Made by a program: the position numbers and the translations under genes
The notes under the pieces: generated by a model
What the model was told of the DNA's origin: nothing
Database searches by the model: none
The model's input: only the letters and a program-made list of their open reading frames with translations
Shown: in pieces, positions 15,215 to 51,550 of the stretch
Position numbering within the stretch: the first letter of the stretch is position 1
Layout of the letters: the number at the start of each line of letters is the position of its first letter
From: a virus
Length of the DNA stretch: 64,000 nucleotides
Direction: 5' to 3' (one strand)
Virus genome (UHGV): UHGV-1430452

Positions 15215-15303
15215 TTTTTATCTCCTTTCATGAACAGTTAAATTGTTTTTACCAAAAATCCCACTCGGGAAAATTTTGATCTTGAAAAAATAGAAATCGA
15301 AAA

Positions 15304-15375
15304 GAAACAGTGTAGGACTCGAACCCACAACCTACAGATATAAGTCTGTTGCTCTACCAATTGAGCTAACTGTTT
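15304..15375 (-). tRNA. Probable tRNA; anticodon region reads CUUAUA (possibly UAU, Ile/AUA) but the loop looks one nt short in my manual fold
   Basis: Acceptor stem AAACAGT/ACTGTTT, D-arm GCTC/GAGC, T-arm GTGGG-TTCGAGT-CCTAC all pair; anticodon stem ACAGA/TCTGT. Confidence 0.55.
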
Positions 15376-15709
15376 CTTCTCATAATAGCGCTTGTAAATT
15401 TCGCGAATATAGATCTTCAGAAACAAAAAAGAAGAACCCCGAAGGATTCTCCTAGACTTTCTTCTGAAGCTCAGAAACTGCTTTCTTCAACTCTTCAAAC
15501 TCCTTTTCTTTTTTCTGATCTGATAATGCACCTGCTATAGCCATAATACCTGTTACTACAACACCTGCATATTTTCCGACAGACTTCAGAAGCGGATTAT
15601 TGATAATACCTTTGAATTTCATTTTTCTCGTCTCCTTTCTTCATTCCATTAAAGGAAATGTTTTTGTCGCGATACCGGTTTCGCTATATCAAAATATCAT
15701 CGTTTATCG

Positions 15710-25813: not shown

Positions 25814-26065
25814 ATGAGAATAGTATGGAAAGACAGTGCGCCTAAAACAAAACCTTGGTTGACGTTCAAATATAGAGAACATATCGTTAGCCAATATGGA
25901 GATGGATGGATTACCGATATACCTGGTGATAACAATATCTATTTTCCGAGAGAGTGTGCTTATAATGCAATCGATAAGTCTCTAGGTGGAAAGACACGAA
26001 AAGCTAATCCTCAAAGACATAAATTAGGAATAAAAGTTATTGGTAGAAAGGACGATGTATCATGA
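25814..26065 (+). CDS. Small hypothetical protein, tandem paralog A (MRIVWKDS...)
   Basis: 83 aa; RBS GGAGGAG; paralog of the next gene. Confidence 0.5.
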   Translation: MRIVWKDSAPKTKPWLTFKYREHIVSQYGDGWITDIPGDNNIYFPRECAYNAIDKSLGGKTRKANPQRHKLGIKVIGRKDDVS

Positions 26066-26313
26066 GAATCGTATGGAAAGATAGTCATAAGCCAAAAGAA
26101 TATGAACCTATGAAATATCGAAATATTTACATCTTCGGTACTCCTGAAGGATGGGAAGTAAATATAAAAGGAGATAATAATCTATACAAGACTCATTACT
26201 GTGCTATGAATGCGATTGATGATTACTTTGGAGATTTTGGAGAACGTGGTACAGAAAAACGTAAACGATATGGAATACAAATAATAGGTAAGAAAAATGA
26301 TGAGACTGCATGA
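26062..26313 (+). CDS. Small hypothetical protein, tandem paralog B (MRIVWKDS...)
   Basis: 83 aa; start overlaps stop of paralog A (ATGA); shared MRIVWKDS, GDNN.Y, NAID, G.RG.. K+.+ GI..IG+K.D. Confidence 0.5.
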   Translation: MRIVWKDSHKPKEYEPMKYRNIYIFGTPEGWEVNIKGDNNLYKTHYCAMNAIDDYFGDFGERGTEKRKRYGIQIIGKKNDETA

Positions 26314-27009: not shown

Positions 27010-27318
27010 TTACATCTTGTGTGAAATCTCCTCGCAATGCTTTTCCAATGATTTGATTCGTTCTTCGTGACCCTGATTTTGAATTTTCAGCTCGTCTATT
27101 TCAGATCCATGATTCGTAACCCGAGTCTTCAAGTTATTAATCATCTCGGTCAAGAAGTTTATAGTCGCGTTGAGTTTGATTATGTTTTCGTTTAGCTTTT
27201 CGATAGGCTCATTTTTAGAATGTTCTTCCTGAGTAATATCCTTCCTCAGTTTCATATAGAAAGCGAACACTGAGCCTATGACTGTTAAGACAATGATTAT
27301 AACTTGATTCTCTGCCAT
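27010..27318 (-). CDS. Membrane-anchored coiled-coil protein (lysis-associated?)
   Basis: 102 aa; N-terminal helix IIIVLTVIGSVFAFY then coiled-coil; immediately after the holin. Confidence 0.45.
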   Translation of the reverse strand: MAENQVIIIVLTVIGSVFAFYMKLRKDITQEEHSKNEPIEKLNENIIKLNATINFLTEMINNLKTRVTNHGSEIDELKIQNQGHEERIKSLEKHCEEISHKM

Positions 27319-27320
27319 AG

Positions 27321-27614
27321 TTATTTTTCCTTCGCTGTATTATTATCGTCTTTCTTACCTTCTACAAATCTACTAAATCCCTGATGTAGACCTGTAGATG
27401 CCAGACCCATAACTGCACCATATACGATGGAATCGACAGAGATGCCGCTTACTGCCGTATTCAATGCTGCGCCGACAACAGCCAGGATGACTGGAATATC
27501 GTCGTTAGGGATACGTTTTAAAAAAGTCGCATGTTTGATGATATATCCAACCACCAGACAAGCGACCATTACTACAAGTACGAAATGTTCAGTTAAAATT
27601 TTTGCGAAATCCAT
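27321..27614 (-). CDS. Putative holin
   Basis: 97 aa; two hydrophobic helices and a charged C-terminus (KKDDNNTAKEK). Confidence 0.55.
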   Translation of the reverse strand: MDFAKILTEHFVLVVMVACLVVGYIIKHATFLKRIPNDDIPVILAVVGAALNTAVSGISVDSIVYGAVMGLASTGLHQGFSRFVEGKKDDNNTAKEK

Positions 27615-37250: not shown

Positions 37251-38327
37251 TCACCCCCATAATTTAGTTGTAAATACAGCTTTCTCTGTAACTGGACATC
37301 CAGGCTCACATTTGATAGATTGACTAACAACTTTGGCTTTTATGTTACTTATTCCAGCTCGTTTATAGTTAAGACGTACACAATCATTTAACCGTACAGG
37401 ACAATACGCGTGAGTATATGTCACCGTATATTCAAGGCAGGACACTTCACGGAGTAATTGCTCTGCATATTTTTGAATCTGTGATTCGGTCGGTATACCT
37501 GACAAGCTAGGATTAGTCACTCGATGTAAAATCTCTCGACCGCGATTGATAGTAGAAGTTGGACTATTTTCGTCGTCATTAACTGCCCTACCGTAATAAA
37601 TATCGTTAGCGTCAGAGTATACTACCTCAACAACATTCGGTATTCCGTACAGATCATGATTTACTGTTATCTCAGGATACAAGATAGAACTATTATTATC
37701 ATCATAGGTATGAACAGGTTGCAAAGAGGCCGTATCCTGATCGGGAGCGAAAAGAATACGACCTAATTCGTCTAAACTAAGTTTATATTTTGCATTTGAT
37801 ATCAAATCCGAAGTAAATGTTATCCAAGTATCATCCGTGTTTGCTACAAAATCGTTATATAATTCAGTCTCATTGTCTGCTTTTATAACTGGTGCTCTTA
37901 CGTTGTCACGACATATCTGATAGGCCATTTTCATGATGTTCTCGCCTTTTAATATGGAATATCCAAGAGGTGGTGGATTCTCCTTTAACTCAATCAGTGG
38001 TGTGTAAGCGTCAAGAGTGTTGTCTTGTTTCTTACCGTCGAATGATGAGGATGGGGTTTGAACTAAGTAAGTGCCTAGAGGATGTTTCTCAGTTAATCCA
38101 TTTTGAATCGTAATGAGATAAACCCTCACATAGCACTCACCGATAGTTTCCGTAATATCTAATGTAGCTGATCCAAGTGTTTCAGCCCCTGAGTCTCTGG
38201 AAATAGAACACGATTTCACGGTATCTATTCGTTTCATATCTTTCCATGTGCCTGGATCGACTATATAGTATTCAAATGTCTGTTCCATCGACTTAGTCCA
38301 ATCTGGCATATCAGATACCTCCTTCAA
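37251..38327 (-). CDS. Tail/baseplate structural protein
   Basis: 358 aa; second gene after the tape measure. Confidence 0.5.
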   Translation of the reverse strand: MKEVSDMPDWTKSMEQTFEYYIVDPGTWKDMKRIDTVKSCSISRDSGAETLGSATLDITETIGECYVRVYLITIQNGLTEKHPLGTYLVQTPSSSFDGKKQDNTLDAYTPLIELKENPPPLGYSILKGENIMKMAYQICRDNVRAPVIKADNETELYNDFVANTDDTWITFTSDLISNAKYKLSLDELGRILFAPDQDTASLQPVHTYDDNNSSILYPEITVNHDLYGIPNVVEVVYSDANDIYYGRAVNDDENSPTSTINRGREILHRVTNPSLSGIPTESQIQKYAEQLLREVSCLEYTVTYTHAYCPVRLNDCVRLNYKRAGISNIKAKVVSQSIKCEPGCPVTEKAVFTTKLWG

Positions 38328-40890
38328 CTCTTGTTATGTCTAGAGTAACCGGAATAGTGACATCGGAATGTTTCTGATTAAAAGATACAGTGATGTTTGC
38401 CCAATAGCCGCTTCCGGACGGTTCCCTAACATACACATCACCCATCCATACGGATAAACGCCGTAATGCATAAAGAGTCTCTTTGTCTTCCTTAGGAATA
38501 ACCATATTCCAAGTTGCAGAAGCGCCAACATGAGTGCCATAATAACTAACCGGATACTTTCTTCCGATATAATTTACGAGTGTACTATCCGGTTTGTTAT
38601 TGTCTGATACATCAATGTTGTAAGGGATTTTCAGCATCGAACCTACCCATGGAGGAGTTTCGAGTTCTTCGTCTTCAGTTGTGTTAAAATTGGTCCATTC
38701 ATCGTCCCACTGAATTATTACGGAATTGCCTCCTACTGGATACCCAGGTGGATCATAGTAACTAACAGAACCTGTACTTTTCGATGTGGCGACAATTCTA
38801 TATCGCGCGTAATCTAAAGCTGGGTGTGGATCAGTTACGTATGATTCATCTAAAGGAGATAGACCGGTAGCTAGCTCGGTAAATGTTCCATCAAACTCTT
38901 TCCTATAAACCGATAGCTCAACATCGGCCACAGCTTCCGACATTTCGTTCAAACAATATGGACTTATGTATGCTGTGTATGTTTCTTCGTCAATTCCTAT
39001 TTCTGCATCCGGTTCATATGTGAATTCAGTCCATGATACATCGAATTCTAATTCCGCTTCTGACGTAAGACCGGAATCCATAGAAGCAGTGCATTTAACT
39101 GTATAGCTGATGGCATTTTCGAGATCTATACTATGTGCAGAGATCTCCAATAACAACTGCTCTTTAGTGTCAAAGTACTGAGAATATAATGCTTCTCCTG
39201 CGTTTATTATTTTCTCATTGCCTATTTCATCAACTGTTGTGTAAACTTCATTCGATGTTATTTCAACATGATATCCAATTGGCATCTGAGTGTTAGGACC
39301 AGTTTCACACTTAAGATAAATAGGAAACGAATTTACTGTAGTGATAATATTATTTTGATTATCAGTCAAATTCATGGACAATGTGGCCGGAGCATAAACG
39401 TTAACTGTTCTCTGTATCGACCAATCGCCATACTGTTTAGTTACACCAGCAGTTCTAACTCGCCACTTTATAACAGTGCCTTCTTTGTATTGGGTAGTAT
39501 CCACAGAATAGAAACTGGTTCTATCTTTATCTTCTTCGACATTGGTATTTTCTATAGTGTGGGTTATTTTTTCTTCATCATAATATATCTCTAATTCAGC
39601 AAACGTCTGACTAGAGCCGTCTTCCGCATTATGAACCCAATATAGAAGTAACTCTTCCCCAGTAATCGCGGTAGTTGTTGAAGACCATGTTGTAGGAGCT
39701 GATGGACTTTTACCAATAACTATGGATTTAATCGATGTCCATGACGATTCTCCATTATCGTTTACAGCTCGTACTCTAAAGAAATATTCCTGTCCTGATT
39801 CCATCCCGGTTATCTGAGCATATTGGTAAGCAGTAGATGTCACGCTTTTAACCTCTCCAGGATTTTGATCGAAATACGATTGTTTTGTTGTATATTCGAT
39901 AGTAAAGCTTGTAGCATTCTCTACTTTTTCCCATTTAAGCTGCACAGACGTGTCCGACGTAGCCTTGATGAAAATTATTTCTTTAGGAGCTGCTGGTACT
40001 GTTCCTGCTGAATTCGAGTAATCAGACCATTCGCCATAGATTTTATCGCTTCCGTATAGGTTCACTGCTCTACAACGAACTCTGTAGTCTGAACCTGGAT
40101 TAATAGTAAAAGACGCCACAGCTCTACAGGTCTGAACCTTTACTGTCGACGTCTTAAACCGAGTTGCCCCACTATAAACTTCAAAAGCGATCTGGTCAGT
40201 TCTAGGATCATCAATGTTATCGATAGTTGCTGTTAATGTGTACTTATCGATTTTTACACTTGGTGCATTAGGCTTAGCAGGAGGATTACCTGCAAAATTC
40301 AAGTATGCACTAGCTTTAGTGGCAGTCCAATAAGCAACGTCTTTACCATTCACCTTATGCTTTTTAGCGACAGGTTTAACATATACCATGACACTTATCG
40401 CATTTGACGGGACGGTGTATGTAGATTGGTGTACTTTTTCTTGTGAATTACTTCCTACAAAAAATATTCCATCACCAGTGCTATAACGCCATTCAACTTG
40501 ATAATAATCTACATAAGAGGTAGCTCTTGGTGCTGCGAAAAAAGATACTGACCTGGTTCCATCACCGAAGTCAGTACCACTTCCATCTTTTATCAGATAT
40601 CCGACATTTATAGCGGACTGAATATTATGAGTACCACTTTTATTCCTGCCTAGAACAGCTCTTGCTCCTTTAATCTGAGTAATTTTCCATGTCTCATTAA
40701 AAACCCAGGAGGAAATGCTAACACCGTTATACCATGTAGCACCACTTTGAATTGTTACCCATTCGCCTACTCGATAGTTTCCAATTTGTTCTGCATATAT
40801 TTTTGCCGGTTCTTTAAAGTCCCATGTAGCGTAATATGTACTATCTGTACCAGACTGAAGCGCTAATTTAAGATTGGTAACTGACGCCAT
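38311..40890 (-). CDS. Distal tail (Dit-like) protein with fibronectin type III-like repeats
   Basis: 859 aa; immediately downstream of the tape measure; FN3-like segments (PSAP..W, EYTTKQ...RVRAVN). Confidence 0.6.
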   Translation of the reverse strand: MASVTNLKLALQSGTDSTYYATWDFKEPAKIYAEQIGNYRVGEWVTIQSGATWYNGVSISSWVFNETWKITQIKGARAVLGRNKSGTHNIQSAINVGYLIKDGSGTDFGDGTRSVSFFAAPRATSYVDYYQVEWRYSTGDGIFFVGSNSQEKVHQSTYTVPSNAISVMVYVKPVAKKHKVNGKDVAYWTATKASAYLNFAGNPPAKPNAPSVKIDKYTLTATIDNIDDPRTDQIAFEVYSGATRFKTSTVKVQTCRAVASFTINPGSDYRVRCRAVNLYGSDKIYGEWSDYSNSAGTVPAAPKEIIFIKATSDTSVQLKWEKVENATSFTIEYTTKQSYFDQNPGEVKSVTSTAYQYAQITGMESGQEYFFRVRAVNDNGESSWTSIKSIVIGKSPSAPTTWSSTTTAITGEELLLYWVHNAEDGSSQTFAELEIYYDEEKITHTIENTNVEEDKDRTSFYSVDTTQYKEGTVIKWRVRTAGVTKQYGDWSIQRTVNVYAPATLSMNLTDNQNNIITTVNSFPIYLKCETGPNTQMPIGYHVEITSNEVYTTVDEIGNEKIINAGEALYSQYFDTKEQLLLEISAHSIDLENAISYTVKCTASMDSGLTSEAELEFDVSWTEFTYEPDAEIGIDEETYTAYISPYCLNEMSEAVADVELSVYRKEFDGTFTELATGLSPLDESYVTDPHPALDYARYRIVATSKSTGSVSYYDPPGYPVGGNSVIIQWDDEWTNFNTTEDEELETPPWVGSMLKIPYNIDVSDNNKPDSTLVNYIGRKYPVSYYGTHVGASATWNMVIPKEDKETLYALRRLSVWMGDVYVREPSGSGYWANITVSFNQKHSDVTIPVTLDITRVEGGI

Positions 40891-40894
40891 TAGC

Positions 40895-43800
40895 TTATAT
40901 CCTCCTTTCTATCACGGCTGCTCTTACAATTTCTTTAACAGCTTCTGTAATATTGCTTCCATCATCATAAGTAAGACCGTTAATGTTATATGAAACACCA
41001 CCAACATTACCTAAGTCTTTACGAAGTCTGTTTATTGCTGAAACAACATCATCCATAGATCCATTTTGAATTCTTTCACCCATCATAGAATTTATGGTGT
41101 TTAGTCTTGACATTACTCCCAATGTAGGAGTTCCATTCAACATGCCGTTAATTGCACTAGCTCCAGATTTAATATCAGACAAATCAAGGACTGGTCTTAT
41201 TGTCGGCTGAGTGTTGATATCTCCGTCAAGAAGACTCGAAATTCTCGACATTGCTGTTTGAGTACTGTTAACAGCGTTATCGGACATTCTAGAAATAGAT
41301 TGTTTCACTAATCCTCCGAACATACCGATACCCTTAGCAAATCCAATAGGAACATATGAACCTATTTTCATGAACACCCTTGAAGGTGAATGAATAGCAA
41401 GATTAGCCCTAGCTGCTGCCGATGCTGCCGCTGCCATTGAAGCTGCTGCATTTGCCGCCGACCAAATGTTCGCTTGAATACCTGCTACAAATCCGCTAGC
41501 TACATAAGATCCAGAACTATAAAAGCTTGAATAATATCCTCTAGTAGAAGATACTGCTGAAGACAATATCGACGTTGTTGTGTTCACAACACTTGAAGCT
41601 CTACTTCGCATACCGTTTACGAATTGTGTCATTAAAGCAACGCCATTAGTTCCAAATACGGATCTTTTACTGCTAATAGCTTTAAGCATCGAGTTGATAA
41701 TATTGGTAGCTGTTGATGTTACCAATGCTTGTTTTGATTTCAAACCATTAGAGAAAGATGTAATTAAGTTCGATCCAATGTTCGACATCTTAGACGTTGA
41801 ACCACTAAATGATTTAGTAATACTATTCATAGAAGTTTGACCCAAAGTAGATACAGCAGTTTTAAACGATGCTACGCCGCTTGTGTTAAGTCCGGCCAAA
41901 CTACTAATAAAATTCTTAATCTTAGTAGCCGCTGTTATAGAGCTAGATATTGATCCGACATTTATACCTGCAACAGAATCAGAGTAACTTTTTAAAGTAC
42001 TTCCGATAGTTCCTATCTTAAAGTTTGAAACTCCACTAGAATCCAAACTTGATAGTCCCTGAATAAAAGTCTTTAATCTATTTGCCGCAGTAACAGAAGA
42101 TGTAACTTTACCAGAGTCCACATTTTCAACCGACTTAGAGTAGCTCTTCAAAGTAGTTCCAATAGATCCTATTTTGAAGTTACTAACACCACTACTATCC
42201 AATCCCGTAAGACTTGATACAAAATTTCTAAGTCTATTTGCTGATGATATGGATGATGAGACTATACCCGGGTCCATATCTTTAACGGAGTTTCCGTAGT
42301 CCTGCATAGCCTTACCTATGGAATTAATCTTGAAGTTTTCAATACCGCTTGTATCAAGACCCACCAGACTAGCTATTAAACTCTTAAGTCTTAAAGCTAC
42401 TGAGACTGCTGTGTTTACTTTAGCGATATCGATATCGGCTACAGATTCTCCGAACTTACCTATAGCCTGTCCAATATTAACCAAATGACCGTCTCCGGCT
42501 CCAACACCTGCAAAGCTACTAACACCACTTGCATCGAGATCGGCTAAAGCGGTAATCAGGTTTTTAATCCTATAAGCGGCTGTTATGGCGGTGTTTATAC
42601 CATCAGAGTTTATGTTTGCAGCGTCTGTTGAGAATGTAGTCATGGCCGAGCTGAATTTTTCGACGTATTTTGAGAATTCCTCAAGATTCATCTTACCGTC
42701 AAACCAGCCTTCTTCTGGAAGGGCTTCTTGAAGAGCTATAATAGCGCTACCTGCATTCGTTACGGATGTTACGACTGCTTCCGATATACCGTCCTCTCCC
42801 ATTCCGGTTTTAAGTTTGCCCATAGCTGTAGCAAATTGACCTATGTTTTCGCCAAAAGTTCCTAAGTCATCTTTTCCGGTAAACCAGTCGATTACTCCTC
42901 CCATATTCTCAAGAGAAGATTGTAATCCAGCAAGTTTAGTAGCCGCATTTATAATAGAAGTAATTGAATCATCATCTATTTTTGTATCTCCTAAATCGGC
43001 AAAAGCAGTTTTCATCGATCCCATAAAGCTAGCGACACTAGACCCAAAAGTCCCTAAGTCGTCCCTTCCAGTGAACCAGTCAACCACTCCTCCTATATTT
43101 TCAAGCGATGACTGCAAGCCTGATAATTTAGTAGCTGCGTCGATGATTATGCCGATTGCTTCGGTATTTATTTTGACTCCGTCTAAGCTTGAAAATGCTT
43201 TTGTCATAGATCCTATAAATAGACCTATATTTACACCAAATGTGCCGAGGTCGTCTCTACCTTTAAACCAGCTTATTACTCCACCTATTGGTTCGAGTGC
43301 TGACTGCAATCCTGCTAATTTAGTTGATCCATCGATAATGGTAGTCAAAGCTTCAGAATTAAATTCAACACCATCAAGACTCTGAAAAGCAGTTTTCATA
43401 GAGAATATAAATTGAGCTACGTTTGTTCCAAAAGTTCCAAGATCATCTCTACCTTTAAACCAACTTATTACTCCGCCTATAGGTTCCAATGACGATTGTA
43501 AATTAGCTAGAATAGTAGTAGCACTTATTATTGCGGTTAATCCTTCTGTGTTTAAAGTAATTCCTTCTAGATCAGAGAACGCAACTTTCATGGAAGATAT
43601 GAATTCTCCTACACTTTCTCCAAATGTGCCGAGGTCGTCTCTACCTTTAAACCAGCTTATTACTCCGCCTATTGGTTCAAGGCTAGATTGAAGTTTACTC
43701 AGTTCAGCAGCTCCAGTAATGATCGATGTTAAAGCTTCCGTATTGAAGGATACTCCGTCAAGACCTAGAAAAGCATTCTTCATTGAGAATATAAATTGAC

Positions 43801-46800
43801 CGACGTTAGTTCCGAAAGTCGCGAGGTCATCCCTGCCAGAGAACCAATCCATAACACCGCCTATAGGCTCCAATGACGATTGTAATTCGCTAAGTTTCGT
43901 TGCTACATTTATCACAGCGCCCATTGCCGCCTCGTCTATTGTGATTCCAGCAGAAGCTTGCGATATCGCTTTCATAGCATTGAAGAACGCAACACCATCG
44001 GTCTCAAACTTCTCCATAGAAGTACCACCGAGAGTGAATATGTCAGCGATAGAAGTACCAACTGTTGTAAATCCTATCTCTGCCATAGCACTCATTAAAT
44101 CGGACACGCCATCGAAAGATCCTGATTTAATACCACTAGCATTTTCGCTTGCTATAGCTAGTTTGTCCATGAAATCAGCAATATTTTGACCTATTTCCGG
44201 TAAACTTCCGGTAATACCTTCTCCGATTCCTCCTATGAATGCTCCGATTCCTTTGCCGATTGCGTTTCCTATTTTTCCTAATAATCCACCGCCAGCTTCA
44301 ACAAGGGACGAAAAACCTGGAATTTTAGATAACCCACCGATTGCTGCCAGAAGTACTGCTATCTCAGCTATTACAGCACCAACGGCTAATACTCCGGTCA
44401 TTGCTGGGCCGGCTAAAGCTCCAGCTCCGGCGAATACTTTCATCAATATTCCGATTACTCCGAATGCACCTATGCCTTTTAGCATAGTATCCATATCTAA
44501 ATTGCCTATCGAATCGACGATACCTTTGACAACTTGTCCGACAAAATTCATTATTGCCGATATTAATTCTGGAGTATGCTCGGCAAGACTATTAATAACT
44601 CCGATTATAAAACCGAGAAGTGAATCGACAATCTGTGGTGCATACTGTTCTAATGCGTCTAAAACGCCTAAGAGCAGTTTCAGAAAACTTTCAGCCAATT
44701 GAGGTGCATATTCTCCTATAACTTTTGCGATTTCGACGATACCTCGACCTATTACTTCAGCAATTTGTGGAATCAATCCTAAAATACCGGTGATTATAAC
44801 TGTTATTGATGCGACAAGCGCTGTGGCACCAGCAGTTCCAGCAGTAGCAAGAGCTGTGAATCCAGCTGATAGAGCAAGTATACCAACGCCAATTCCAGCT
44901 ATAGCTACAGCAAATATAGCCATCGCAGCGGATAAACCAAGTATTGCCGGAGTGAGTGGACTCAGAAGAGCTCCAGCTACTCCTATTACTACAAAGGCTC
45001 CAGCAAGAGTTACGAGACCTTTTACTATGCTCTCCCAACTCATAGATCCTAATGATTTCAATACAGGTGTTAAAATTGCTAATCCAGCAGCTGCAACAAC
45101 TAATGCGGCAGACCCCTTAAGAGATCCACTCATGGCTTTTAATCCAATAGATAGCTCGACCAAAGCTATTCCAAGTACAACGAGTCCTTTTCCTATACTC
45201 TCCCAGCTCATCGATCCTAATGATTTTAAGACTGGAGTTAATATAGCAAGTGCTGACGCCATCAAAAGCATTTGACCGCCGAACTTAGCGATAGATCCAC
45301 TACCCTTGCTCATAATTTTAGAAGCTAACACCAGCATTGTAACAATACCTAATATTCCAGCTCCACCTTTAGCTAATTCGTTCCAACTCATAGAACCCAA
45401 ACTCTTACCAACAGCAGCCAAAATGCCAACCGCAGCTGACATGATAAGCATCTGTCCAGCAAATTTGGTTATAGACTTACTTTCAGTATTCATGAGTTTG
45501 GCAGCACCAACTAATATAGCGACTATTCCTAATATTCCGGCCCCACCTTTGGCTAATTCTTCCCAACTCATTGAACTGAGAATTTTAGCGACTCCAGATA
45601 ACGCTGCTATTGCTGCTGATAATATAAGCATCTGTCCAGCAAATTTGGTTATAGACTTACTTTCGGTATTCATAAGTTTAGCAGCCGCGACGAGTATAGC
45701 TACCATTCCACCAATACCAACGAGGCCTTTTGCTACACCGTTCCAATCAAGTCCAGCTATAATTTTCATAGCGCCTGCTAATATAAGAATAGCTGCTCCG
45801 AGTCCAATCATCTGAACAGTTCTAGCTATACCTGACAAACTTGATACTATACCAGATAAAGGTTTGACACTTTTGCTGTTTATTTTTTCAAGCACTGCTA
45901 ATGCAGATATCAACTCTACAAACAAACCGCCTATTGCGCCTAAAGAACTTCCGAGTTTATCCTCGTCTATTCCAGATATGACAAAAAGAGCCGCTGCCAG
46001 TATTCCAATAGCACCCGCTATTTTTAGCAATGTTCCGGCTTTAAGATTCTGTTGCCATGATTCCAAACTTCCCTTAACGCCATCAAGTATTTTTTTAACG
46101 TTATCTAAGAAACTTATTTTTTCGAATGGATCAGATAATCCTTTAATAAAGTTTCTTATGGCTAGTAATATTCCAGCAAACAATCCGCTGTTTAATACTT
46201 CGAAAATATCGCCTTTACCAAAGGCATCGGCTATCATATTACCTATATCGGAAAAAGCTTCTCCGATGGCCGCGCCAACCGACTTTATAGTGTTCCATAG
46301 ACCGGAAAAGAAGCCAAGAAAACCTTGAAGTGTAGGAGAAATCTTAAAACTCTCAATAAGTGAGCGTCCAAACTCTGCTATTTTTGAAATCCCGTTGCTA
46401 AGAAATCCAACAATTTTATCAACTGCGTCGCCAAACAGATTTCCTTCTACTATGGAGTCTCTCACATTCGAGATAAAATCTCCAAAAGAACTCGTTGCAT
46501 CCAGTATTCCTCCACCAAGTCCGGTGAAGTTTCCAATAATATCTAGAGCGCCTTTTCCAACAGCTTTAAAAGCCTCTATAACAATATCGATAGCGGAAAA
46601 GATTCCTTTAAATGTAGATTTTATTTTAGATGCAGCGCCTTCACTTACTTTTAAAGTATCAGTGAAAGCTTTGAATCTATCAATCATACTTACTACTTGG
46701 TCGACTGTAGTAGGTGGAAATATCTCTCTAAAAGCTTCTTTTATCGGTTTTATTATATCTCCAAGGAATTTGAATATATTTTTCAAACCCTCTATAATTT

Positions 46801-48442
46801 TTTCTCTACCGCCAAGCTCGGTTATTCCATCGATAAGACCATCTATGTTGTCTTTTAATTTATTCGTAGATTCGTTTGCTTCATTTAGCGCTTTTAATGT
46901 AGCGTCATCAACGATACCTGTTATTTCTAAATCGTTAGCTTCCTGAAAAGCTTTAATAGCTGACTCTGTGGCACTTCCGAAAATTCCATCAGCACCAGAA
47001 TCGCCAATATCATAGTTAAGGCTTTGTAATGCTTTTTGTACTTTTGTTACGTCGTCTCCTGTATTACCTTTCGATAAACCGGCTTCGACTCCACTTAAAT
47101 CTACAAGTTCGCCTTTTAATCCGCTAACAGCTTCTTTTAAAATATCAGAAGATATGGCACCAGATTGAAAAGCTTTTTCTAGAGAACCATATTTTTTTAT
47201 GATCTCGTCCATATTAACGCCATGGTCCTCAGCAATCGATCTAACTTTTTCCTCAAAAGTATCGGTTTCTACACCAGCTTCATTTATTTTTTTTACAAGC
47301 TTATCCCAGTTAGAAGACATCGCGCCTTCCAATAATTCGTTACGAGATTTCGCTGATGATTCAACCATCTTTCCAATGGTATCTGAAATTCCAGTGAACA
47401 ATTCTTTGGAGTCTTCAAAATCACCGACAAGTATTCTCCAAGTTTGACCCCATCCAGATTGGAGAGATTCTTTTACCGTATCTATCAGCTGTGTGAATGT
47501 TTTTACTTTTGTAGCAGCGTCTTCAGCGTCCTTCGCTAAAGCCATAATATCGTTTGCTTGAGATTCGCTATAACCTTGGGCAATAAGATCGGCCTTACTA
47601 TATGCGCCAGACAATTGGTTAAGAGTTTCAGTTAATACCTCGGTCGTTAACCATTCACCTTTTGTTAGGCTTTCTCTAAAGCTGCCATATGTATCAATAG
47701 CTTGTTTAGCGCCTGTTCCCAAAAGTTCAGACGTTCTAACAAGTGCGTCCTGAAATACCTTACCACCCATACCGGCATTAACAACTGAGTTCCAGTCCAT
47801 AAGACTAACTTTACCTGCCGCCAATGCCTGAGAAAGCTGATACATCGCAGTAGATGCCTGTTGAGAAGTTGATCCAGAAACTGCGGCCAAGTTCGCAATA
47901 CCTTTAATAGCATTAACTGAGGTATCAAGTTTTACACCAGCTGCTGTAAACGTACCGATATTACGAGTCATTTCCGTAAAATTGTAAATCGTCTTATCGG
48001 CATATGTATTTAGCTCATCTAAAGCCTTATTTACAATATCAACATTAGTGCCTTCCTGCCTTGTATTGGATAGAATTGTCTGAATAGCACCAATCTGAGT
48101 TTCGTATTCTTGGAAACCGCTTTTAACCGGATCTATAGTTAATGCTGATATCATACGTTTACCAGTGTTAACAGCCTGGTTAGTGATGTTTGCTAAAGCA
48201 GTTACACCAGCGACCTGTAGTGCTGAAAATTTAGCCTGAACTGTCTCTATACCACTGCTCATTCCTGCAAAGCTAACACCTTTAGCAGCCTTACCGACAT
48301 TCTCCAACCCTTTGGAGGCACCAGATAGATTTAACTTTTGTTTGAGCTTATCGAGAGTTGACATACTGGTTGCGACTCCGCTCTCAAACTGCTTATTGTC
48401 GAACCGCATCTCCAAGACTCTGTTGTCAATAGTCGTACTCAT
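40895..48442 (-). CDS. Tail tape measure protein (2515 aa) with peptidoglycan-binding domain, hydrophobic segments and two internal repeat arrays
   Basis: TMP-like N-terminus; PG_binding_1-like GNTGDDVTKVQKALQSLNYDIGDSGADGIFGSATESAIKAFQ; repeated LQSSLEPIGGVISWFKGRDDLGTFG and SGVSNFKIGSIG units. Confidence 0.9.
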   Translation of the reverse strand: MSTTIDNRVLEMRFDNKQFESGVATSMSTLDKLKQKLNLSGASKGLENVGKAAKGVSFAGMSSGIETVQAKFSALQVAGVTALANITNQAVNTGKRMISALTIDPVKSGFQEYETQIGAIQTILSNTRQEGTNVDIVNKALDELNTYADKTIYNFTEMTRNIGTFTAAGVKLDTSVNAIKGIANLAAVSGSTSQQASTAMYQLSQALAAGKVSLMDWNSVVNAGMGGKVFQDALVRTSELLGTGAKQAIDTYGSFRESLTKGEWLTTEVLTETLNQLSGAYSKADLIAQGYSESQANDIMALAKDAEDAATKVKTFTQLIDTVKESLQSGWGQTWRILVGDFEDSKELFTGISDTIGKMVESSAKSRNELLEGAMSSNWDKLVKKINEAGVETDTFEEKVRSIAEDHGVNMDEIIKKYGSLEKAFQSGAISSDILKEAVSGLKGELVDLSGVEAGLSKGNTGDDVTKVQKALQSLNYDIGDSGADGIFGSATESAIKAFQEANDLEITGIVDDATLKALNEANESTNKLKDNIDGLIDGITELGGREKIIEGLKNIFKFLGDIIKPIKEAFREIFPPTTVDQVVSMIDRFKAFTDTLKVSEGAASKIKSTFKGIFSAIDIVIEAFKAVGKGALDIIGNFTGLGGGILDATSSFGDFISNVRDSIVEGNLFGDAVDKIVGFLSNGISKIAEFGRSLIESFKISPTLQGFLGFFSGLWNTIKSVGAAIGEAFSDIGNMIADAFGKGDIFEVLNSGLFAGILLAIRNFIKGLSDPFEKISFLDNVKKILDGVKGSLESWQQNLKAGTLLKIAGAIGILAAALFVISGIDEDKLGSSLGAIGGLFVELISALAVLEKINSKSVKPLSGIVSSLSGIARTVQMIGLGAAILILAGAMKIIAGLDWNGVAKGLVGIGGMVAILVAAAKLMNTESKSITKFAGQMLILSAAIAALSGVAKILSSMSWEELAKGGAGILGIVAILVGAAKLMNTESKSITKFAGQMLIMSAAVGILAAVGKSLGSMSWNELAKGGAGILGIVTMLVLASKIMSKGSGSIAKFGGQMLLMASALAILTPVLKSLGSMSWESIGKGLVVLGIALVELSIGLKAMSGSLKGSAALVVAAAGLAILTPVLKSLGSMSWESIVKGLVTLAGAFVVIGVAGALLSPLTPAILGLSAAMAIFAVAIAGIGVGILALSAGFTALATAGTAGATALVASITVIITGILGLIPQIAEVIGRGIVEIAKVIGEYAPQLAESFLKLLLGVLDALEQYAPQIVDSLLGFIIGVINSLAEHTPELISAIMNFVGQVVKGIVDSIGNLDMDTMLKGIGAFGVIGILMKVFAGAGALAGPAMTGVLAVGAVIAEIAVLLAAIGGLSKIPGFSSLVEAGGGLLGKIGNAIGKGIGAFIGGIGEGITGSLPEIGQNIADFMDKLAIASENASGIKSGSFDGVSDLMSAMAEIGFTTVGTSIADIFTLGGTSMEKFETDGVAFFNAMKAISQASAGITIDEAAMGAVINVATKLSELQSSLEPIGGVMDWFSGRDDLATFGTNVGQFIFSMKNAFLGLDGVSFNTEALTSIITGAAELSKLQSSLEPIGGVISWFKGRDDLGTFGESVGEFISSMKVAFSDLEGITLNTEGLTAIISATTILANLQSSLEPIGGVISWFKGRDDLGTFGTNVAQFIFSMKTAFQSLDGVEFNSEALTTIIDGSTKLAGLQSALEPIGGVISWFKGRDDLGTFGVNIGLFIGSMTKAFSSLDGVKINTEAIGIIIDAATKLSGLQSSLENIGGVVDWFTGRDDLGTFGSSVASFMGSMKTAFADLGDTKIDDDSITSIINAATKLAGLQSSLENMGGVIDWFTGKDDLGTFGENIGQFATAMGKLKTGMGEDGISEAVVTSVTNAGSAIIALQEALPEEGWFDGKMNLEEFSKYVEKFSSAMTTFSTDAANINSDGINTAITAAYRIKNLITALADLDASGVSSFAGVGAGDGHLVNIGQAIGKFGESVADIDIAKVNTAVSVALRLKSLIASLVGLDTSGIENFKINSIGKAMQDYGNSVKDMDPGIVSSSISSANRLRNFVSSLTGLDSSGVSNFKIGSIGTTLKSYSKSVENVDSGKVTSSVTAANRLKTFIQGLSSLDSSGVSNFKIGTIGSTLKSYSDSVAGINVGSISSSITAATKIKNFISSLAGLNTSGVASFKTAVSTLGQTSMNSITKSFSGSTSKMSNIGSNLITSFSNGLKSKQALVTSTATNIINSMLKAISSKRSVFGTNGVALMTQFVNGMRSRASSVVNTTTSILSSAVSSTRGYYSSFYSSGSYVASGFVAGIQANIWSAANAAASMAAAASAAARANLAIHSPSRVFMKIGSYVPIGFAKGIGMFGGLVKQSISRMSDNAVNSTQTAMSRISSLLDGDINTQPTIRPVLDLSDIKSGASAINGMLNGTPTLGVMSRLNTINSMMGERIQNGSMDDVVSAINRLRKDLGNVGGVSYNINGLTYDDGSNITEAVKEIVRAAVIERRI
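42800..43950. repeat. Tandem in-frame repeats of about 190 bp inside the tape measure gene
   Basis: Near-identical DNA blocks, e.g. around 43241 and 43610 (CCAAATGTGCCGAGGTCGTCTCTACCTTTAAACCAGCTTATTACTCC); boundaries approximate. Confidence 0.6.
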
Positions 48443-48816
48443 ATCTTAGTAACCTCCCTCCAGGCCTCTTCTGCCATTTTGTCAAAAATAGGCTGAATCG
48501 CAGGATTGATATAATCTCTCCCTTGAACCCAGCCTCCAGTACCAGTCCCATGACCATATTGCAAAATAATAGCGATTGGTACACCTTTATTAATGTTAGA
48601 GTTTGTAAAAGTAATCTTTGCTGATCCGGATGTATTCTCAATTTCGTATCCCCACGATTTAGCAGTCAATCCAGATTCTACAGGAGTAGCAGACATAAGA
48701 GCAGCCACCCCTTCCCGACCATATTTGTCGAGTACGCTGAGCTTTGCATTCCCTTTAAGTTTCTCAAAATATCGAGTAACTTTAGAGAAGTCTCCCTTAT
48801 GTCTGAAACTAATCAT
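48439..48816 (-). CDS. hypothetical protein, tail-module
   Basis: 125 aa immediately upstream of the tape measure gene. Confidence 0.5.
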   Translation of the reverse strand: MISFRHKGDFSKVTRYFEKLKGNAKLSVLDKYGREGVAALMSATPVESGLTAKSWGYEIENTSGSAKITFTNSNINKGVPIAIILQYGHGTGTGGWVQGRDYINPAIQPIFDKMAEEAWREVTKI

Positions 48817-48831
48817 TTTGATCTTTCTCCT

Positions 48832-50550
48832 TTACAGTAGCTCGTTAACTCGATCCTGAATTTTCTGAATCATGTTGTGATCGTATCCAGCTTTTGCGAG
48901 GGCATTAATTCGTGCATCTCCATTACCGTATTTTCCGGCAATGACATCACGGGCTACATTATCAATCACTATCTGATTTACTTTCTTCTGCACAGTGTCT
49001 GGATTATAACCAGCTTTCTTGAGAGCAGACACACGAGCATCACCATTACCCCATTTTCCAGCTAAAACCTCTTTAGCTACTTCATCGATAGATTTAGTAG
49101 GTTTTGCAGGAGCTTTAAGTAGTTCATTCACTTTCTTCTGTACAGTGTCTGGATTATAACCAGCTTTCTTGAGAGCAGACACACGAGCATCACCATTACC
49201 CCATTTTCCAGCTAAAACCTCTTTAGCTACTTCATCGATAGATTTAGTAGGTTTTGCAGGAGCTTTAAGTAGTTCATTCACTTTCTTCTGTACAGTGTCT
49301 GGATTATAACCAGCTTTCTTGAGAGCAGACACACGAGCATCACCATTACCCCATTTACCGGCGATTACTTCTTTAGCAATTTCATCGATAGATTTGGTCG
49401 GTTTTGGCGTAGATGTAGGTTTAGATGTTGGTGCTGGTGTGGAAGAACTTTTCGCATATTTTGGTCTAGCAAAACCACGAATCATACCCCAGCCAACCGG
49501 AATGGTACGTCTTGCTACTGCTTCTCCTCTGTTACCTTCAATCGCTGTGATTTGTCCGTTTGAAACAGATTCCACATACCCGATATGATCAGAATATCCG
49601 TCGTTTGGCTGAGTCTTATCATCCCAGTTATAAACAATTACATCACCAGGTTTCGGAGTAATGGTGCCGTCCTCGACCCAAATGCCTTTCTGCTTAAAAA
49701 TCTTAATATGTTCCTCACAACCAACTTCTGTACCGATGAGATCGACTGCTCCGGATTTGATAGCTGCTGCTGATACTGTACAATCACACCATTCATCATT
49801 AGGTTTAATAGCGTATCCGCGAGCCAAAGGTTTGTGAGAATTATAGATGTTAAGAATCTCAATATATTTACCGTTAGCTTCAGAATAACCGAGCCAACTT
49901 CTCATAACATTAAGAACGTCCTGTGCTGTTACACCCAATTCCGTATCCTCCTGTTTTCCGTAAAAATAGTTCATGTCGACTTTACCTTTAATACCGCCTA
50001 CAGTTCCGGAACTCGTATACTGATGAACCAAACAACCGTAATCTGCTTTTCCGTTATAATCAGCGAGCCAGAATTTGTACTGTTTAATCAGATCATGATT
50101 ATACCAATTTCGATAGTAGTCGATATTTGCGTAGATTCCAGCTTTGTATCCCTGAGATTCTACGTACTCACAAAAGATTCTTGTAAAGTTATTACATTCA
50201 TTTTTACCAAGTCTCACACCTTTTGCAGCTGCTTTCTTGACTGTGTCATATTCGAAATCTGCGAAGATGATTGTGTTTTTATCAAGACCAGCTTTTCTAA
50301 CAACATCAACACAGAATTTTGCTTCGTCAAGTGCGCCCTGTTCGTTTAAGGCATAAATAAAATGGTAAGTTCCTATAATCGGAATCTTGTTGTTTTTACA
50401 CCCATTGACATACTCATAGAATTTTGAATCTACTGTCTTCCTGTAAGAAGATCTAAGAATCGCGAACTCTATTCCGGAGGACTTGACTTTAGAAAAATCT
50501 ACATCTCCCTGCCAATAGCTGATATCAATTCCTTTCTTCACAATCATCAT
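48832..50550 (-). CDS. Endolysin: GH25 muramidase + Cys/His peptidase domain (CHAP or NlpC/P60-like) + tandem CW_7 cell-wall-binding repeats
   Basis: 572 aa; GH25-like GIDISYWQG; Cys...His block; repeated IDEVAKEVLAGKWGNGDARVSALKKAGYNPDTVQKKVNELL. Confidence 0.88.
   Translation of the reverse strand: MMIVKKGIDISYWQGDVDFSKVKSSGIEFAILRSSYRKTVDSKFYEYVNGCKNNKIPIIGTYHFIYALNEQGALDEAKFCVDVVRKAGLDKNTIIFADFEYDTVKKAAAKGVRLGKNECNNFTRIFCEYVESQGYKAGIYANIDYYRNWYNHDLIKQYKFWLADYNGKADYGCLVHQYTSSGTVGGIKGKVDMNYFYGKQEDTELGVTAQDVLNVMRSWLGYSEANGKYIEILNIYNSHKPLARGYAIKPNDEWCDCTVSAAAIKSGAVDLIGTEVGCEEHIKIFKQKGIWVEDGTITPKPGDVIVYNWDDKTQPNDGYSDHIGYVESVSNGQITAIEGNRGEAVARRTIPVGWGMIRGFARPKYAKSSSTPAPTSKPTSTPKPTKSIDEIAKEVIAGKWGNGDARVSALKKAGYNPDTVQKKVNELLKAPAKPTKSIDEVAKEVLAGKWGNGDARVSALKKAGYNPDTVQKKVNELLKAPAKPTKSIDEVAKEVLAGKWGNGDARVSALKKAGYNPDTVQKKVNQIVIDNVARDVIAGKYGNGDARINALAKAGYDHNMIQKIQDRVNELL
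48981..49430. repeat. Three near-identical 150-bp tandem repeats (plus one divergent copy upstream) encoding the CW_7 repeats
   Basis: CTTTCTTCTG(C/T)ACAGTGTCTGGATTATAACCAGCTTTCTTGAGAGCAGACACACGAGCATCACC units at about 48981, 49132 and 49282. Confidence 0.8.
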
Positions 50551-51107
50551 CCTTTCGAATTGAATTTCTTTCTTCGAGCTGCATTCATTTCAGCATAACG
50601 ACTCATTAATTCTCGCTTACTTGTCTGTTTAGGTGGCTCATTGTGAGCACTACATACCCTTATCAAAGTAATAAGTCTATTAAGATGCCATTTTTCACAC
50701 TCAAATGGAATATTGTTTGCAATCATCCAATAATATATAAGCTCTGACGTTATGATCTCTCGATTTTTCTTTCCAGATCTTCTGTCATTGATAGTAGTTG
50801 CTGTCATTGGAGCATAAATATAGTCAGTTATTTGCTTTAAGTTATCTTCACTTAACCGACCATACACACTTGGATCAACATTCTTATTGAGTGTCATACA
50901 CCTTATGTAATCTATTGTTTCTTCAATGGTTTTCTCTTTATTTGTATAAAAAGGTTTACACCATTTTGATTCCCATTTTGAAAGAGAGATGAGTGAATGT
51001 TCTAATTGTAGTGTCTGCTCTTTCTGAGCTGGCACGGGTATAAACACTTGATTTCCTTCATCCCATAATTCGTCAGCTTCTCTAGCAGGTACTATAATCT
51101 GAATCAT
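50547..51107 (-). CDS. hypothetical protein, tail-module
   Basis: 186 aa; own RBS GGAGGG. Confidence 0.5.
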   Translation of the reverse strand: MIQIIVPAREADELWDEGNQVFIPVPAQKEQTLQLEHSLISLSKWESKWCKPFYTNKEKTIEETIDYIRCMTLNKNVDPSVYGRLSEDNLKQITDYIYAPMTATTINDRRSGKKNREIITSELIYYWMIANNIPFECEKWHLNRLITLIRVCSAHNEPPKQTSKRELMSRYAEMNAARRKKFNSKG

Positions 51108-51136
51108 TACTCATCCCTCCATTGTGTTCGAATTTA

Positions 51137-51550
51137 TTAAGCTCCTGGAAGCAGATTCTTTGAATTAGCTTCCTGTGCAACATCAGCCGGAACGATGCCG
51201 TTAATAAATGCCGCTGCTGCTTCTGCGTCTGTAGCAAGTTCCATGAAGAGTGTGGAATAAGCTTCTGTCTGTGAAAACTTTCTTGACAGTGGTCTTCCGT
51301 CCTCATCAAGTTTCATGAAACCTTTACCATCCGGAGCCTTTTCTCCATATGCTTTAAGAATAAGATCTTTAAAGATAGCTACGATTGTCGGAGTATCCTG
51401 TGCTGCCACGACTTTCTCAATCATCTCAGCGAATCCACCAACTGTAGATAATTCCATCTCCATAATTTCTGCTTTAGAAAGGTTGAAGTAATATGTATCT
51501 TCTCTTTCTACTCCGTTGTAATCTGTGTATTTAATAGCTTTTTTTAACAT
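51137..51550 (-). CDS. Putative tail assembly chaperone
   Basis: 137 aa; size, acidic composition and position just after the major tail gene. Confidence 0.5.
   Translation of the reverse strand: MLKKAIKYTDYNGVEREDTYYFNLSKAEIMEMELSTVGGFAEMIEKVVAAQDTPTIVAIFKDLILKAYGEKAPDGKGFMKLDEDGRPLSRKFSQTEAYSTLFMELATDAEAAAAFINGIVPADVAQEANSKNLLPGA

What the first reader, a model, noticed from the sequence alone, without database searches (positions are those of the whole stretch)
40895..48442. Exceptionally long tape measure protein with a peptidoglycan-binding domain, hydrophobic segments and two internal repeat arrays
At 2515 aa the tape measure implies a very long tail if tail length scales with its length as in other siphoviruses. 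It contains a PG_binding_1-like domain (about 46880..47080), a series of hydrophobic segments (about 44930..45800) and two in-frame tandem repeat arrays (about 41880..42560 and 42800..43950). Repeat arrays in a tape measure gene are a plausible source of tail-length variation.
Basis: partly seen in the sequence, partly recalled or inferred. Interest (0 to 1): 0.55.

Follow-up and report, generated by a model that had tools for sequence, protein, structure and literature searches.

The report
Long modular phage tape measure protein
This is a genuine 2515-residue tail tape measure gene of an uncultured siphovirus-type gut phage, and although long it is typical of a large family whose length differences come almost entirely from gaining or losing whole internal repeat units.

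Summary
The ORF 40895..48442 (-) is real, uninterrupted and 2515 aa. It is bracketed by tape-measure (TMP) signatures: TMP_3/TIGR02675/phrog_4372 at the N-terminus and homology to the staphylococcal phage 80alpha TMP at the C-terminus. The PG_binding_1 domain (46886..47062) is confirmed by sequence and by predicted fold. No lytic domain was found.

The hydrophobic region is wider than reported (44318..46039) and is itself a third repeat array of 60-aa units. The two reported arrays are confirmed, as 7 units of 64 aa and 5 units of 52-60 aa, and they adjoin.

"Exceptionally long" is not supported. The best 120 homologues are 2096-3111 aa, and published TMPs reach 3123 aa (Tsamsa) and 5002 aa (P23-45).

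The repeat idea is well supported at the protein-length level. In 22 close relatives the span of the two C-terminal arrays explains TMP length (r=0.997, slope 0.98), and every large gap in those arrays is an exact multiple of the unit length.

Two ~3x-coverage assemblies of the same phage lack exactly one 60-aa unit or two 64-aa units. The junctions are the gene's only exact DNA repeats of 20 nt or more (41 and 47 nt). Real polymorphism and assembly collapse cannot be told apart here.

Verdict: new member of a known kind, modest interest. In every relative whose neighbouring genes were examined, a cell-wall hydrolase gene sits between the tail chaperones and the TMP.

The parts
40895..48442 (-). 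Tape measure protein gene, 2515 aa
   Evidence: ORF. phrog_4372 'tail length tape measure protein' at 1255 bits. PF20155 and TIGR02675 both above their curated cut-offs. RBS before the ATG.
47594..48034 (-). TMP_3 domain (aa 137-283) within the conserved N-terminal region (aa ~3-379)
   Evidence: PF20155 at 50.4 bits against a cut-off of 41. TIGR02675 at aa 182-226. Best phrog_4372 stretch at aa 3-379.
46814..47317 (-). The only confidently folded module in aa 284-800 (aa 376-543): a small helical domain followed by PG_binding_1
   Evidence: AlphaFold2 block pLDDT of 64-92 for segment residues ~91-260, and mostly below 50 elsewhere.
46886..47062 (-). PG_binding_1 domain (aa 461-519)
   Evidence: PF01471 at E=1.5e-18. 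Foldseek matches only PG-binding domains, for example the SleB N-terminal domain at TM 0.86 and rmsd 1.0 A. PDB sequence hits point the same way.
44318..46039 (-). Hydrophobic, Gly/Ala-rich region (aa 802-1375) with roughly 14-16 membrane-helix-like segments
   Evidence: Kyte-Doolittle scan. All 11 long uncharged hydrophobic stretches lie in aa 808-1359, including one of 84 aa.
44969..46027 (-). Repeat array H: about 6 units of 60 aa (180 nt), each with two hydrophobic helices
   Evidence: Internal matches at offset 60 aa, up to 76% identity and E=1e-29. Units shown in register. Six HMM hits.
42686..44029 (-). Repeat array B: 7 units of 64 aa (192 nt), aa 1472-1919, with the motif LQSSLEPIGGVISWFKGRDDLGTFG
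   Evidence: Tandem Repeats Finder reports period 384 at 43236-43951.
41864..42667 (-). Repeat array C: 5 units of 52-60 aa, aa 1926-2193. It adjoins array B and is weakly related to it.
   Evidence: hhalign of B against C gives E=6.6e-4 over 25 columns.
40898..41863 (-). Conserved C-terminal TMP core (aa 2194-2515), of constant length (~322 aa) in relatives
   Evidence: PDB 6v8i, 80alpha TMP gp57, E=3.8e-13 for aa 2193-2400. phrog_1204, 1686 and 5493 also match. The tail after the arrays is 320-325 aa in 21 of the 22 close relatives.
43236..43666 (.). The 47-nt exact direct repeat pair (43236-43282 and 43620-43666, offset 384 nt). This is the junction of the 2-unit deletion in locus L012.
45444..45664 (.). 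The 41-nt exact direct repeat pair (45444-45484 and 45624-45664, offset 180 nt). This is the junction of the 1-unit deletion in locus L011.
48439..48816 (-). 125-aa gene matching a tail-completion/Neck1 family. Its stop overlaps the TMP start codon, which suggests translational coupling.
   Evidence: phrog_5 at E=1e-13. ATGA overlap. A 125-aa gene sits at this position in L001, L002, L012, L013 and L014.
48832..50550 (-). Cell-wall hydrolase gene (GH25 + CHAP + 4 CW_7 repeats) lying between the tail chaperones and the TMP
   Evidence: A hydrolase with different domains holds the same slot in relatives.
50547..51550 (-). Tail assembly chaperone gene (Phage_TAC_17, 51137..51550) and an adjoining 186-aa gene (50547..51107)
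   Evidence: The 186-aa gene has its own RBS and ATG.
38311..40890 (-). Downstream 859-aa minor tail protein with an fn3 domain, at the position usually held by the distal tail protein
   Evidence: Its RBS lies within the end of the TMP gene.

Best explanation
This is the tail tape measure protein of a temperate siphovirus-type phage, probably of a low-GC Gram-positive gut host. It has five modules in order.

(1) A conserved N-terminal TMP domain. By analogy with other siphoviruses this lies at the head-proximal end of the tail.

(2) A small folded module ending in a peptidoglycan-binding domain, with no catalytic partner.

(3) A ~570-aa hydrophobic region built partly from duplicated 60-aa two-helix units.

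(4) A ruler-extension zone of about 12 units of 52-64 aa.

(5) A constant 322-aa C-terminal core, which by homology to 80alpha gp57 docks in the tail tip.

Inferred mechanism. During assembly the protein sets tail length in proportion to its own length. Gain or loss of whole units, by recombination between diverged unit copies, lengthens or shortens it in steps of about 7-10 nm. At infection the protein is ejected, the peptidoglycan-binding module engages the wall, and the hydrophobic region inserts into the membrane to help form the DNA conduit.

Shown here: identity, architecture, the repeats, and that unit count explains length in relatives.

Inferred only: tail length (roughly 330-380 nm), wall binding and membrane insertion.
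For: TMP identity. phrog_4372 at 1255 bits, and PF20155 and TIGR02675 above their curated cut-offs. The C-terminus is homologous to 80alpha TMP gp57 in PDB 6v8i. The gene lies after the major tail protein, tail terminator and tail chaperone, and before minor tail and fibre genes. No hit annotated as a tail sheath appeared among the neighbouring genes.

Peptidoglycan binding. Shown by sequence and by predicted fold.

Hydrophobic region..

Repeats..

Length control by unit number.
- In 22 relatives of about 58% identity or more, length runs from 2096 to 2900 aa. It tracks the B+C array span (292-1116 aa) with r=0.997 and slope 0.98.
- The non-repeat part stays at about 1800 aa.
- Every gap above 11 aa in the pairwise alignments is an exact multiple of a unit: 52, 60, 64, 104, 128, 192, 256 or 320 aa.
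- B copy number ranges from 2 to 13.

The ruler principle and an empirical ratio come from the literature. Tsamsa has 3123 aa and a 440 nm tail (PMC3903500). Tandem repeats occur in 52% of 45,500 TMPs and are known contributors to TMP length (PMC13585406). [quoted passage not shown]
Against: No virion or tail measurement exists for this phage or for any close relative.

The AlphaFold2 model of four B units has low confidence (pLDDT 38). It suggests two helices and two loops per unit rather than one continuous helix. If so, 1.5 A per residue may overestimate the length added per unit.

Many hydrophobic stretches are only 15-16 uncharged residues long, which is short for a bilayer span.

The peptidoglycan-binding module is globular and is absent or replaced in some relatives, so it is dispensable for the ruler function.
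Confidence: 0.85

Rival explanations
1. The repeat copy number in the window is an assembly artefact (expansion or collapse), so the 2515-aa length is wrong.
For: Two other assemblies of essentially the same phage encode TMPs that are 100% identical apart from one missing block. Their DNA is 99.0-99.98% identical to the window in every aligned block. One lacks exactly 60 aa and the other exactly 128 aa. The junctions fall on the gene's only exact repeats of 20 nt or more.
Against: The units are only 45-72% identical at the DNA level, and the longest exact repeats are 41 and 47 nt.

A JGI protein is identical to the window over 2489 aa. A distinct lineage at 86% identity, on a contig named k141_43203 (MEGAHIT-style naming) of 94.7 kb, has the same 2515 aa with no gap of 5 aa or more.

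The two shorter versions come from contigs with SPAdes-style names recording 3.2x and 3.7x coverage. One of them also carries indels that split the neighbouring tail gene. They are therefore the more likely artefacts.
Confidence: 0.1
2. The ORF is a fusion of two genes, a TMP plus another tail protein, created by a sequencing error.
For: Its unusual length. In some Arthrobacter phage records the tblastn match spans two annotated genes.
Against: TMP-specific domains sit at both extreme ends.

More than 100 homologues from independent assemblies are colinear and 2096-3111 aa long.

There is no frame change or stop in 7545 nt.
Confidence: 0.02
3. The C-terminal repeat arrays are not ruler elements. 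They would act after ejection, for example by spanning or binding a thick Gram-positive wall. Copy number would then track host envelope thickness rather than tail length.
For: The predicted units are helix-loop-helix with conserved Gly/Pro/Trp/Phe loop motifs rather than an uninterrupted helix. The classical 11-residue aromatic periodicity of TMP repeats is absent. The unit is restricted to this TMP family.
Against: In every tested siphovirus, all parts of the TMP contribute to tail length when deleted or duplicated in frame. This rests on established knowledge of lambda gpH and TP901-1, as cited in PMC13585406 and PMC8616913.

The two roles do not exclude each other.
Confidence: 0.1

Closest known systems
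Tape measure proteins of PHROG 4372 (Arthrobacter cluster AM, Gordonia and Streptomyces phages, Bifidobacterium phage BitterVaud1)
   Same: They share a homologous N-terminal domain, hydrophobic region and C-terminal core. The Arthrobacter cluster AM/AU phages also have a fused protease-capsid gene and an endolysin in a non-canonical position (PMC5513430).
   Different: The tblastn matches in the cultured phages span about 3.7-5.9 kb of DNA, or roughly 1200-2000 aa. They lack detectable 64-aa or 52-aa units: tblastn with the array region found only two uncultured faecal phages.
Bacillus phage Tsamsa TMP (3123 aa, 440 nm tail) and Thermus phage P23-45 gp96 (5002 aa)
   Same: Both are giant TMPs of siphoviruses with very long tails. 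P23-45 gp96 also carries membrane domains (PMC3903500 and PMC10770324).
   Different: Both are longer than this protein. P23-45 gp96 carries a virion RNA polymerase and a metallopeptidase. No enzymatic domain was found here.
Staphylococcus phage 80alpha TMP gp57 (PDB 6v8i)
   Same: The C-terminal ~200 residues are homologous at E=3.8e-13. That entry is recalled to be the 80alpha baseplate structure (my own knowledge), which is the basis for placing the C-terminus at the tail tip.
   Different: gp57 is 1154 aa. The match is confined to the C-terminal core.
TMPs with 11-residue aromatic-marker tandem repeats (mycobacteriophages; Staphylococcus phage SA3821)
   Same: Tandem repeats with conserved Trp/Phe positions. 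The number of periodic repeats has been reported to be proportional to tail length (PMC8616913; PMC13585406).
   Different: The units here are 52, 60 and 64 aa, and there is no 11-residue periodicity.
Mycobacteriophage TM4 and coliphage T5 TMPs with embedded peptidoglycan hydrolase motifs
   Same: A cell-wall-directed module embedded in the TMP. The existence of these two cases rests on my own knowledge, not on a tool result.
   Different: Only a binding domain (PG_binding_1) is present here, with no catalytic domain by sequence or fold. In relatives the slot holds a CW_7 repeat or nothing.

Membership tests
Siphovirus tail tape measure protein | Sequence match to curated TMP families above their thresholds | tested here: met
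   PF20155 at 50.4 bits (cut-off 41). TIGR02675 at 35.6 bits (cut-off 21.35). phrog_4372 at 1255 bits.
Siphovirus tail tape measure protein | Gene lies in the tail module, after the major tail protein and chaperones and before the distal tail and fibre genes | tested here: met
   One departure: a hydrolase gene and a 125-aa gene lie between the chaperones and the TMP.
Siphovirus tail tape measure protein | C-terminal region homologous to that of a structurally characterised TMP | tested here: met
   80alpha gp57 (6v8i), E=3.8e-13, aa 2193-2400.
Siphovirus tail tape measure protein | Predominantly alpha-helical, extended protein | tested here: inconclusive
   The AlphaFold2 models are mostly helical but have low confidence outside aa 376-543.
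Siphovirus tail tape measure protein | Its length sets the tail length | not testable with these tools
   This needs electron microscopy of virions or of engineered length variants.
PG_binding_1 (PF01471) | Profile match above the gathering score, and the family's fold | tested here: met
   67.2 bits against a cut-off of 23. The predicted fold superposes on the SleB N-terminal domain at TM 0.86 and rmsd 1.0 A.
PG_binding_1 (PF01471) | Binds peptidoglycan | not testable with these tools
   This needs a pull-down assay with purified cell wall.
TMPs carrying a peptidoglycan hydrolase domain | A catalytic muralytic domain within the TMP | tested here: not met
   None was found in Pfam, NCBIfam, PHROGs, PDB sequence search or the fold search of aa 284-800. 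All lysis-family hits cover only the binding domain.
TMP tandem repeats with 11-residue aromatic periodicity | Trp/Phe markers spaced 11 residues apart | tested here: not met
   The aromatic autocorrelation peaks at lags of 60, 64 and 52. Lag 11 is not among the top lags in any repeat array.

The most novel reading that the evidence does not exclude
The whole-unit differences between near-identical genomes are real. These are one 60-aa hydrophobic unit lost in L011 and two 64-aa units lost in L012, each at a 41-47-nt exact repeat. On this reading, phage populations of the same strain in different samples carry tape-measure length variants produced by short-homology recombination. That would be natural tail-length or channel-size polymorphism on which selection can act.
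Probability: 0.3. Interest if true: 0.5.

Novelty: new member of a known kind. Interest (0 to 1): 0.3.

Why it matters
Tape measure proteins are the classic example of a molecular ruler. This family offers a clean natural series: the same about 1800-aa scaffold carries between 2 and 13 copies of a defined 64-aa unit.

Measuring tails across that series would test how a non-classical, helix-loop-helix repeat converts residues into nanometres. It would also show whether the hydrophobic units count towards length.

The interchangeable wall-binding insert (PG_binding_1, CW_7 or none), and the hydrolase gene always placed just upstream, may help predict host envelope type for uncultured gut phages.

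None of this changes the established picture of how tape measures work.

Tried and rejected
- Megablast of the gene against 50,697 phage records found no match. The phage has no close cultured relative.
- The first protein database search failed internally. It succeeded on retry.
- A look-up of the identical JGI protein P0001 found no contig on record.
- The repeat finder reported no direct repeats in the TMP gene at seeds of 18-20. A direct k-mer scan nevertheless finds exact repeats of 47 and 41 nt, and I rely on that scan.
- The AlphaFold2 model of four 64-aa units was too uncertain (pLDDT 38) for any 3D claim. I used only the helix/loop pattern, with caution.
- A hidden lytic domain in aa 284-800 was rejected by fold search.
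- Homology between the hydrophobic units and the B or C units was rejected (hhalign E 0.37-0.62). B and C are only weakly related.
- The classical 11-residue periodicity is absent.
- A programmed frameshift joining the two chaperone-position genes was not pursued. The second gene has its own RBS and ATG.
- Host identification through genome contigs gave only distant relatives: a Lachnoclostridium MAG at 35% identity and Candidatus Colivivens at 27%. The host therefore remains inferred.
Full report
**The observation**

The ORF reported at 40895..48442 exists on the minus strand and encodes 2515 aa with no interruption. Its ATG is preceded by a strong ribosome-binding site (GGAGGGAGG) and overlaps the stop codon of the upstream gene. 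The window is 34-42% G+C, and the neighbouring ORFs lie on the same strand.

- PG_binding_1 matches aa 461-519, nt 46886..47062, at E=1.5e-18.
- All strongly hydrophobic segments lie in aa 802-1375, nt 44318..46039.
- The two reported repeat arrays are real at the protein level. Array B has seven units of 64 aa (aa 1472-1919). Array C has five units of 52-60 aa (aa 1926-2193). Unit-to-unit E-values reach 5e-34.

The hydrophobic region is itself repetitive, with about six 60-aa units that each hold two hydrophobic helices (array H). Arrays B and C adjoin and are weakly related (hhalign E=6.6e-4). Array H is unrelated to either.

**What it is**

The protein matches tape-measure (TMP) families at both ends.
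- At the N-terminus: TMP_3 (PF20155, above threshold), TIGR02675, and PHROG 4372 'tail length tape measure protein' at 1255 bits.
- At the C-terminus: aa 2193-2400 match the TMP gp57 of staphylococcal phage 80alpha (PDB 6v8i) at E=3.8e-13.

The surrounding genes form a siphovirus-type late module. In order they are:
- terminase;
- portal;
- a fused protease-capsid gene;
- tail terminator;
- major tail protein;
- a Phage_TAC_17 chaperone and a 186-aa gene;
- a cell-wall hydrolase;
- a 125-aa gene matching a tail-completion/Neck1 family;
- the TMP;
- an fn3-bearing 859-aa tail protein;
- further tail and collagen-like fibre genes.

No hit annotated as a tail sheath appeared. A large serine recombinase on the other strand suggests a temperate phage.

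No cultured phage is close. Megablast finds nothing. The best tblastn hit is an unannotated human-faecal phage at 42% identity, whose TMP ORF is 2314 aa. Distant genomic relatives are prophages in a Lachnoclostridium MAG and a Candidatus Colivivens MAG. The host is therefore inferred to be a low-GC Gram-positive gut bacterium.

**Is there a lytic domain?**

None was found. Every 'endolysin' or 'SleB' family hit covers only the binding domain.

An AlphaFold2 model of aa 284-800, built with 54 aligned sequences, is confident only for aa ~376-543. That stretch is a small helical domain followed by PG_binding_1. The rest is low-confidence helix. A Foldseek search of this model against the PDB returned only peptidoglycan-binding domains, for example the SleB N-terminal domain at TM 0.86 and rmsd 1.0 A.

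In relatives the same slot carries a CW_7 repeat (P0022, aa 409-447) or nothing (P0032). The wall-binding module is thus an exchangeable insert.

**Is it exceptionally long?**

It is not, either within its family or against the literature.
- The protein database search hit the 8000-candidate ceiling, and the best 120 hits are all 2096-3111 aa.
- A profile of the 64-aa unit, searched against 1.84 billion representatives, found 379 proteins. Most of the 150 listed are 2000-3100 aa, and in those the unit lies in the C-terminal half.
- Published TMPs are longer: Tsamsa at 3123 aa with a 440 nm tail (PMC3903500) and P23-45 at 5002 aa (PMC10770324).

Taking Tsamsa's ratio (0.141 nm per residue) or the classical 0.15 nm per residue, this protein implies a tail of about 355-377 nm. 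If the globular module does not count, the figure is about 330-350 nm. This is an inference, not a measurement.

**Do the repeats drive length variation?**

At the protein level, yes.

Unit HMMs built from the window's own copies give H6/B7/C5 for the window. Across the 120 homologues they give B = 0-13 copies, with C-type units replacing B in more distant members.

Among the window protein and its 21 top-ranked homologues (about 58% identity or more where aligned), length runs from 2096 to 2900 aa. It correlates with the B+C span at r=0.997 and slope 0.98. The remainder of the protein stays near 1800 aa, and the C-terminal core stays at about 322 aa.

In pairwise alignments every gap above 11 aa is an exact multiple of a unit: 52, 60, 64, 104, 128, 192, 256 or 320 aa.

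Tandem repeats are a known and common contributor to TMP length. They occur in 52% of 45,500 TMPs (PMC13585406). These units, however, lack the classical 11-residue aromatic periodicity (compare PMC8616913).

**Assembly artefact or polymorphism?**

Two ENA contigs are 99.0-99.98% identical to the window in every aligned DNA block. Their TMPs are 100% identical to the window's, except for one missing block each.
- L011 lacks exactly 60 aa, one H unit.
- L012 lacks exactly 128 aa, two B units.

The TMP gene contains only two exact direct repeats of 20 nt or more. One is 41 nt at an offset of 180 nt. The other is 47 nt at an offset of 384 nt. Each deletion has collapsed exactly one of these pairs.

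Both contigs have SPAdes-style names that record about 3x coverage. L012 also lacks one CW_7 repeat in the hydrolase gene and carries indels that split the neighbouring tail gene. Collapse during assembly is therefore at least as likely as real recombination.

The window's own counts are independently supported. A JGI protein is identical over 2489 aa. A distinct lineage at 86% identity, on a 94.7-kb contig with MEGAHIT-style naming, has the same 2515 aa and no gap of 5 aa or more. The units are only 45-72% identical at the DNA level, so gross mis-assembly of the window is unlikely.

**How it most likely works**

Shown here: the modular architecture and the link between unit count and length.

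Inferred from established TMP biology:
- The C-terminal core sits in the tail tip, by homology to 80alpha gp57.
- The major tail protein polymerises around the TMP until the TMP's N-terminus is reached.
- Each added unit lengthens the tail by roughly 7-10 nm.
- On infection the TMP is ejected and the peptidoglycan-binding module engages the wall.
- The hydrophobic region then enters the membrane to help form the DNA conduit. The lambda TMP has been implicated in such a channel (bioRxiv 10.1101/2025.11.03.685801).

Two caveats apply. The low-confidence model of four B units suggests two helices and two loops per unit rather than one continuous helix, so the per-residue yield may be below 1.5 A. 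Many hydrophobic stretches are only 15-16 uncharged residues long.

**Seen in passing**

In the window and in all five relatives whose neighbouring genes were examined, a cell-wall hydrolase gene with shuffled domains lies between the tail chaperones and the 125-aa gene and TMP.
- Window: GH25 + CHAP + 4 CW_7. L012 and L013 have the same domains in a protein 50 aa shorter.
- L014: Amidase_2 + Glucosaminidase.
- L001: Amidase_2, with a sub-threshold SH3_3 match.
- L002, the Lachnoclostridium MAG: Amidase_2 + SPOR + CW_7, preceded by two small membrane-protein ORFs.

In the window, a holin-like ORF and an XhlA-like ORF lie 21 kb away, after the fibre genes, with no hydrolase beside them.

**Verdict**

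This is a real, well-formed tape measure gene and a new member of a known kind. The claim of exceptional length is not supported. The repeat-driven length hypothesis is well supported for protein length and untested for tail length.

Noticed in passing
window 48832..50550 (-); also L012 8043-9611, L013 8042-9610, L014 6163-7611, L001 7646-8611, L002 8676-9608: A cell-wall hydrolase gene sits inside the tail module, between the tail-assembly chaperone genes and the 125-aa gene and TMP. This holds in the window and in all five relatives examined, down to 35% TMP identity, and the catalytic and binding domains are shuffled between them. The domain sets are GH25+CHAP+CW_7; Amidase_2+Glucosaminidase; Amidase_2 with a sub-threshold SH3_3 match; and Amidase_2+SPOR+CW_7. 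In L002 two small membrane-protein ORFs (holin-like) precede it. I did not test whether it is the phage's endolysin in an unusual place or a virion-associated lysin.
   Followed up: partly
window 27010..27614 (-): A holin-like 97-aa ORF with two hydrophobic segments and an XhlA-like 102-aa ORF lie after the tail fibre genes with no hydrolase gene next to them. They are about 21 kb from the only hydrolase gene found among the ORFs I scanned in the window.
   Followed up: partly
window 48976..49425 (-strand gene 48832..50550): The CW_7 repeats of the hydrolase gene are near-identical at the DNA level. Two 150-nt copies are 99% identical, with a 215-nt exact run at an offset of 150 nt. Relatives L012 and L013 encode a protein 50 aa shorter, which equals one 150-nt repeat. 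The copy number here (4 rather than 3) is much more sensitive to assembly than anything in the TMP.
   Followed up: partly
window 48439..48816 (-): A 125-aa gene matches a tail-completion/Neck1 family (phrog_5) and resembles HK97 gp10-type proteins. Its stop overlaps the TMP start as ATGA. A gene of exactly 125 aa holds this position in all five relatives examined.
   Followed up: partly
window 52967..54904 (-): A single 645-aa gene combines prohead protease and major capsid regions (phrog_3270; Peptidase_S78 plus Phage_capsid in the identical relative). The same unusual fusion is described for Arthrobacter cluster AM/AU phages (PMC5513430).
   Followed up: no
window 24071..25657 (+): A 528-aa ORF on the opposite strand looks by eye like a large serine recombinase, which would make the phage temperate. 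It was not run through a domain search. Two paralogous 83-aa ORFs follow it at 25814..26313.
   Followed up: no
window 15303..15376 (-): ARAGORN reports a tRNA-like gene with an abnormal two-base anticodon call ('tRNA-???').
   Followed up: no
P0022 aa 409-447; P0032; P0114 aa 492-549 (homologues of the TMP): The wall-binding insert in the N-terminal third of the TMP is interchangeable among relatives. It can be PG_binding_1 or a CW_7 repeat, or no such domain is detected.
   Followed up: partly
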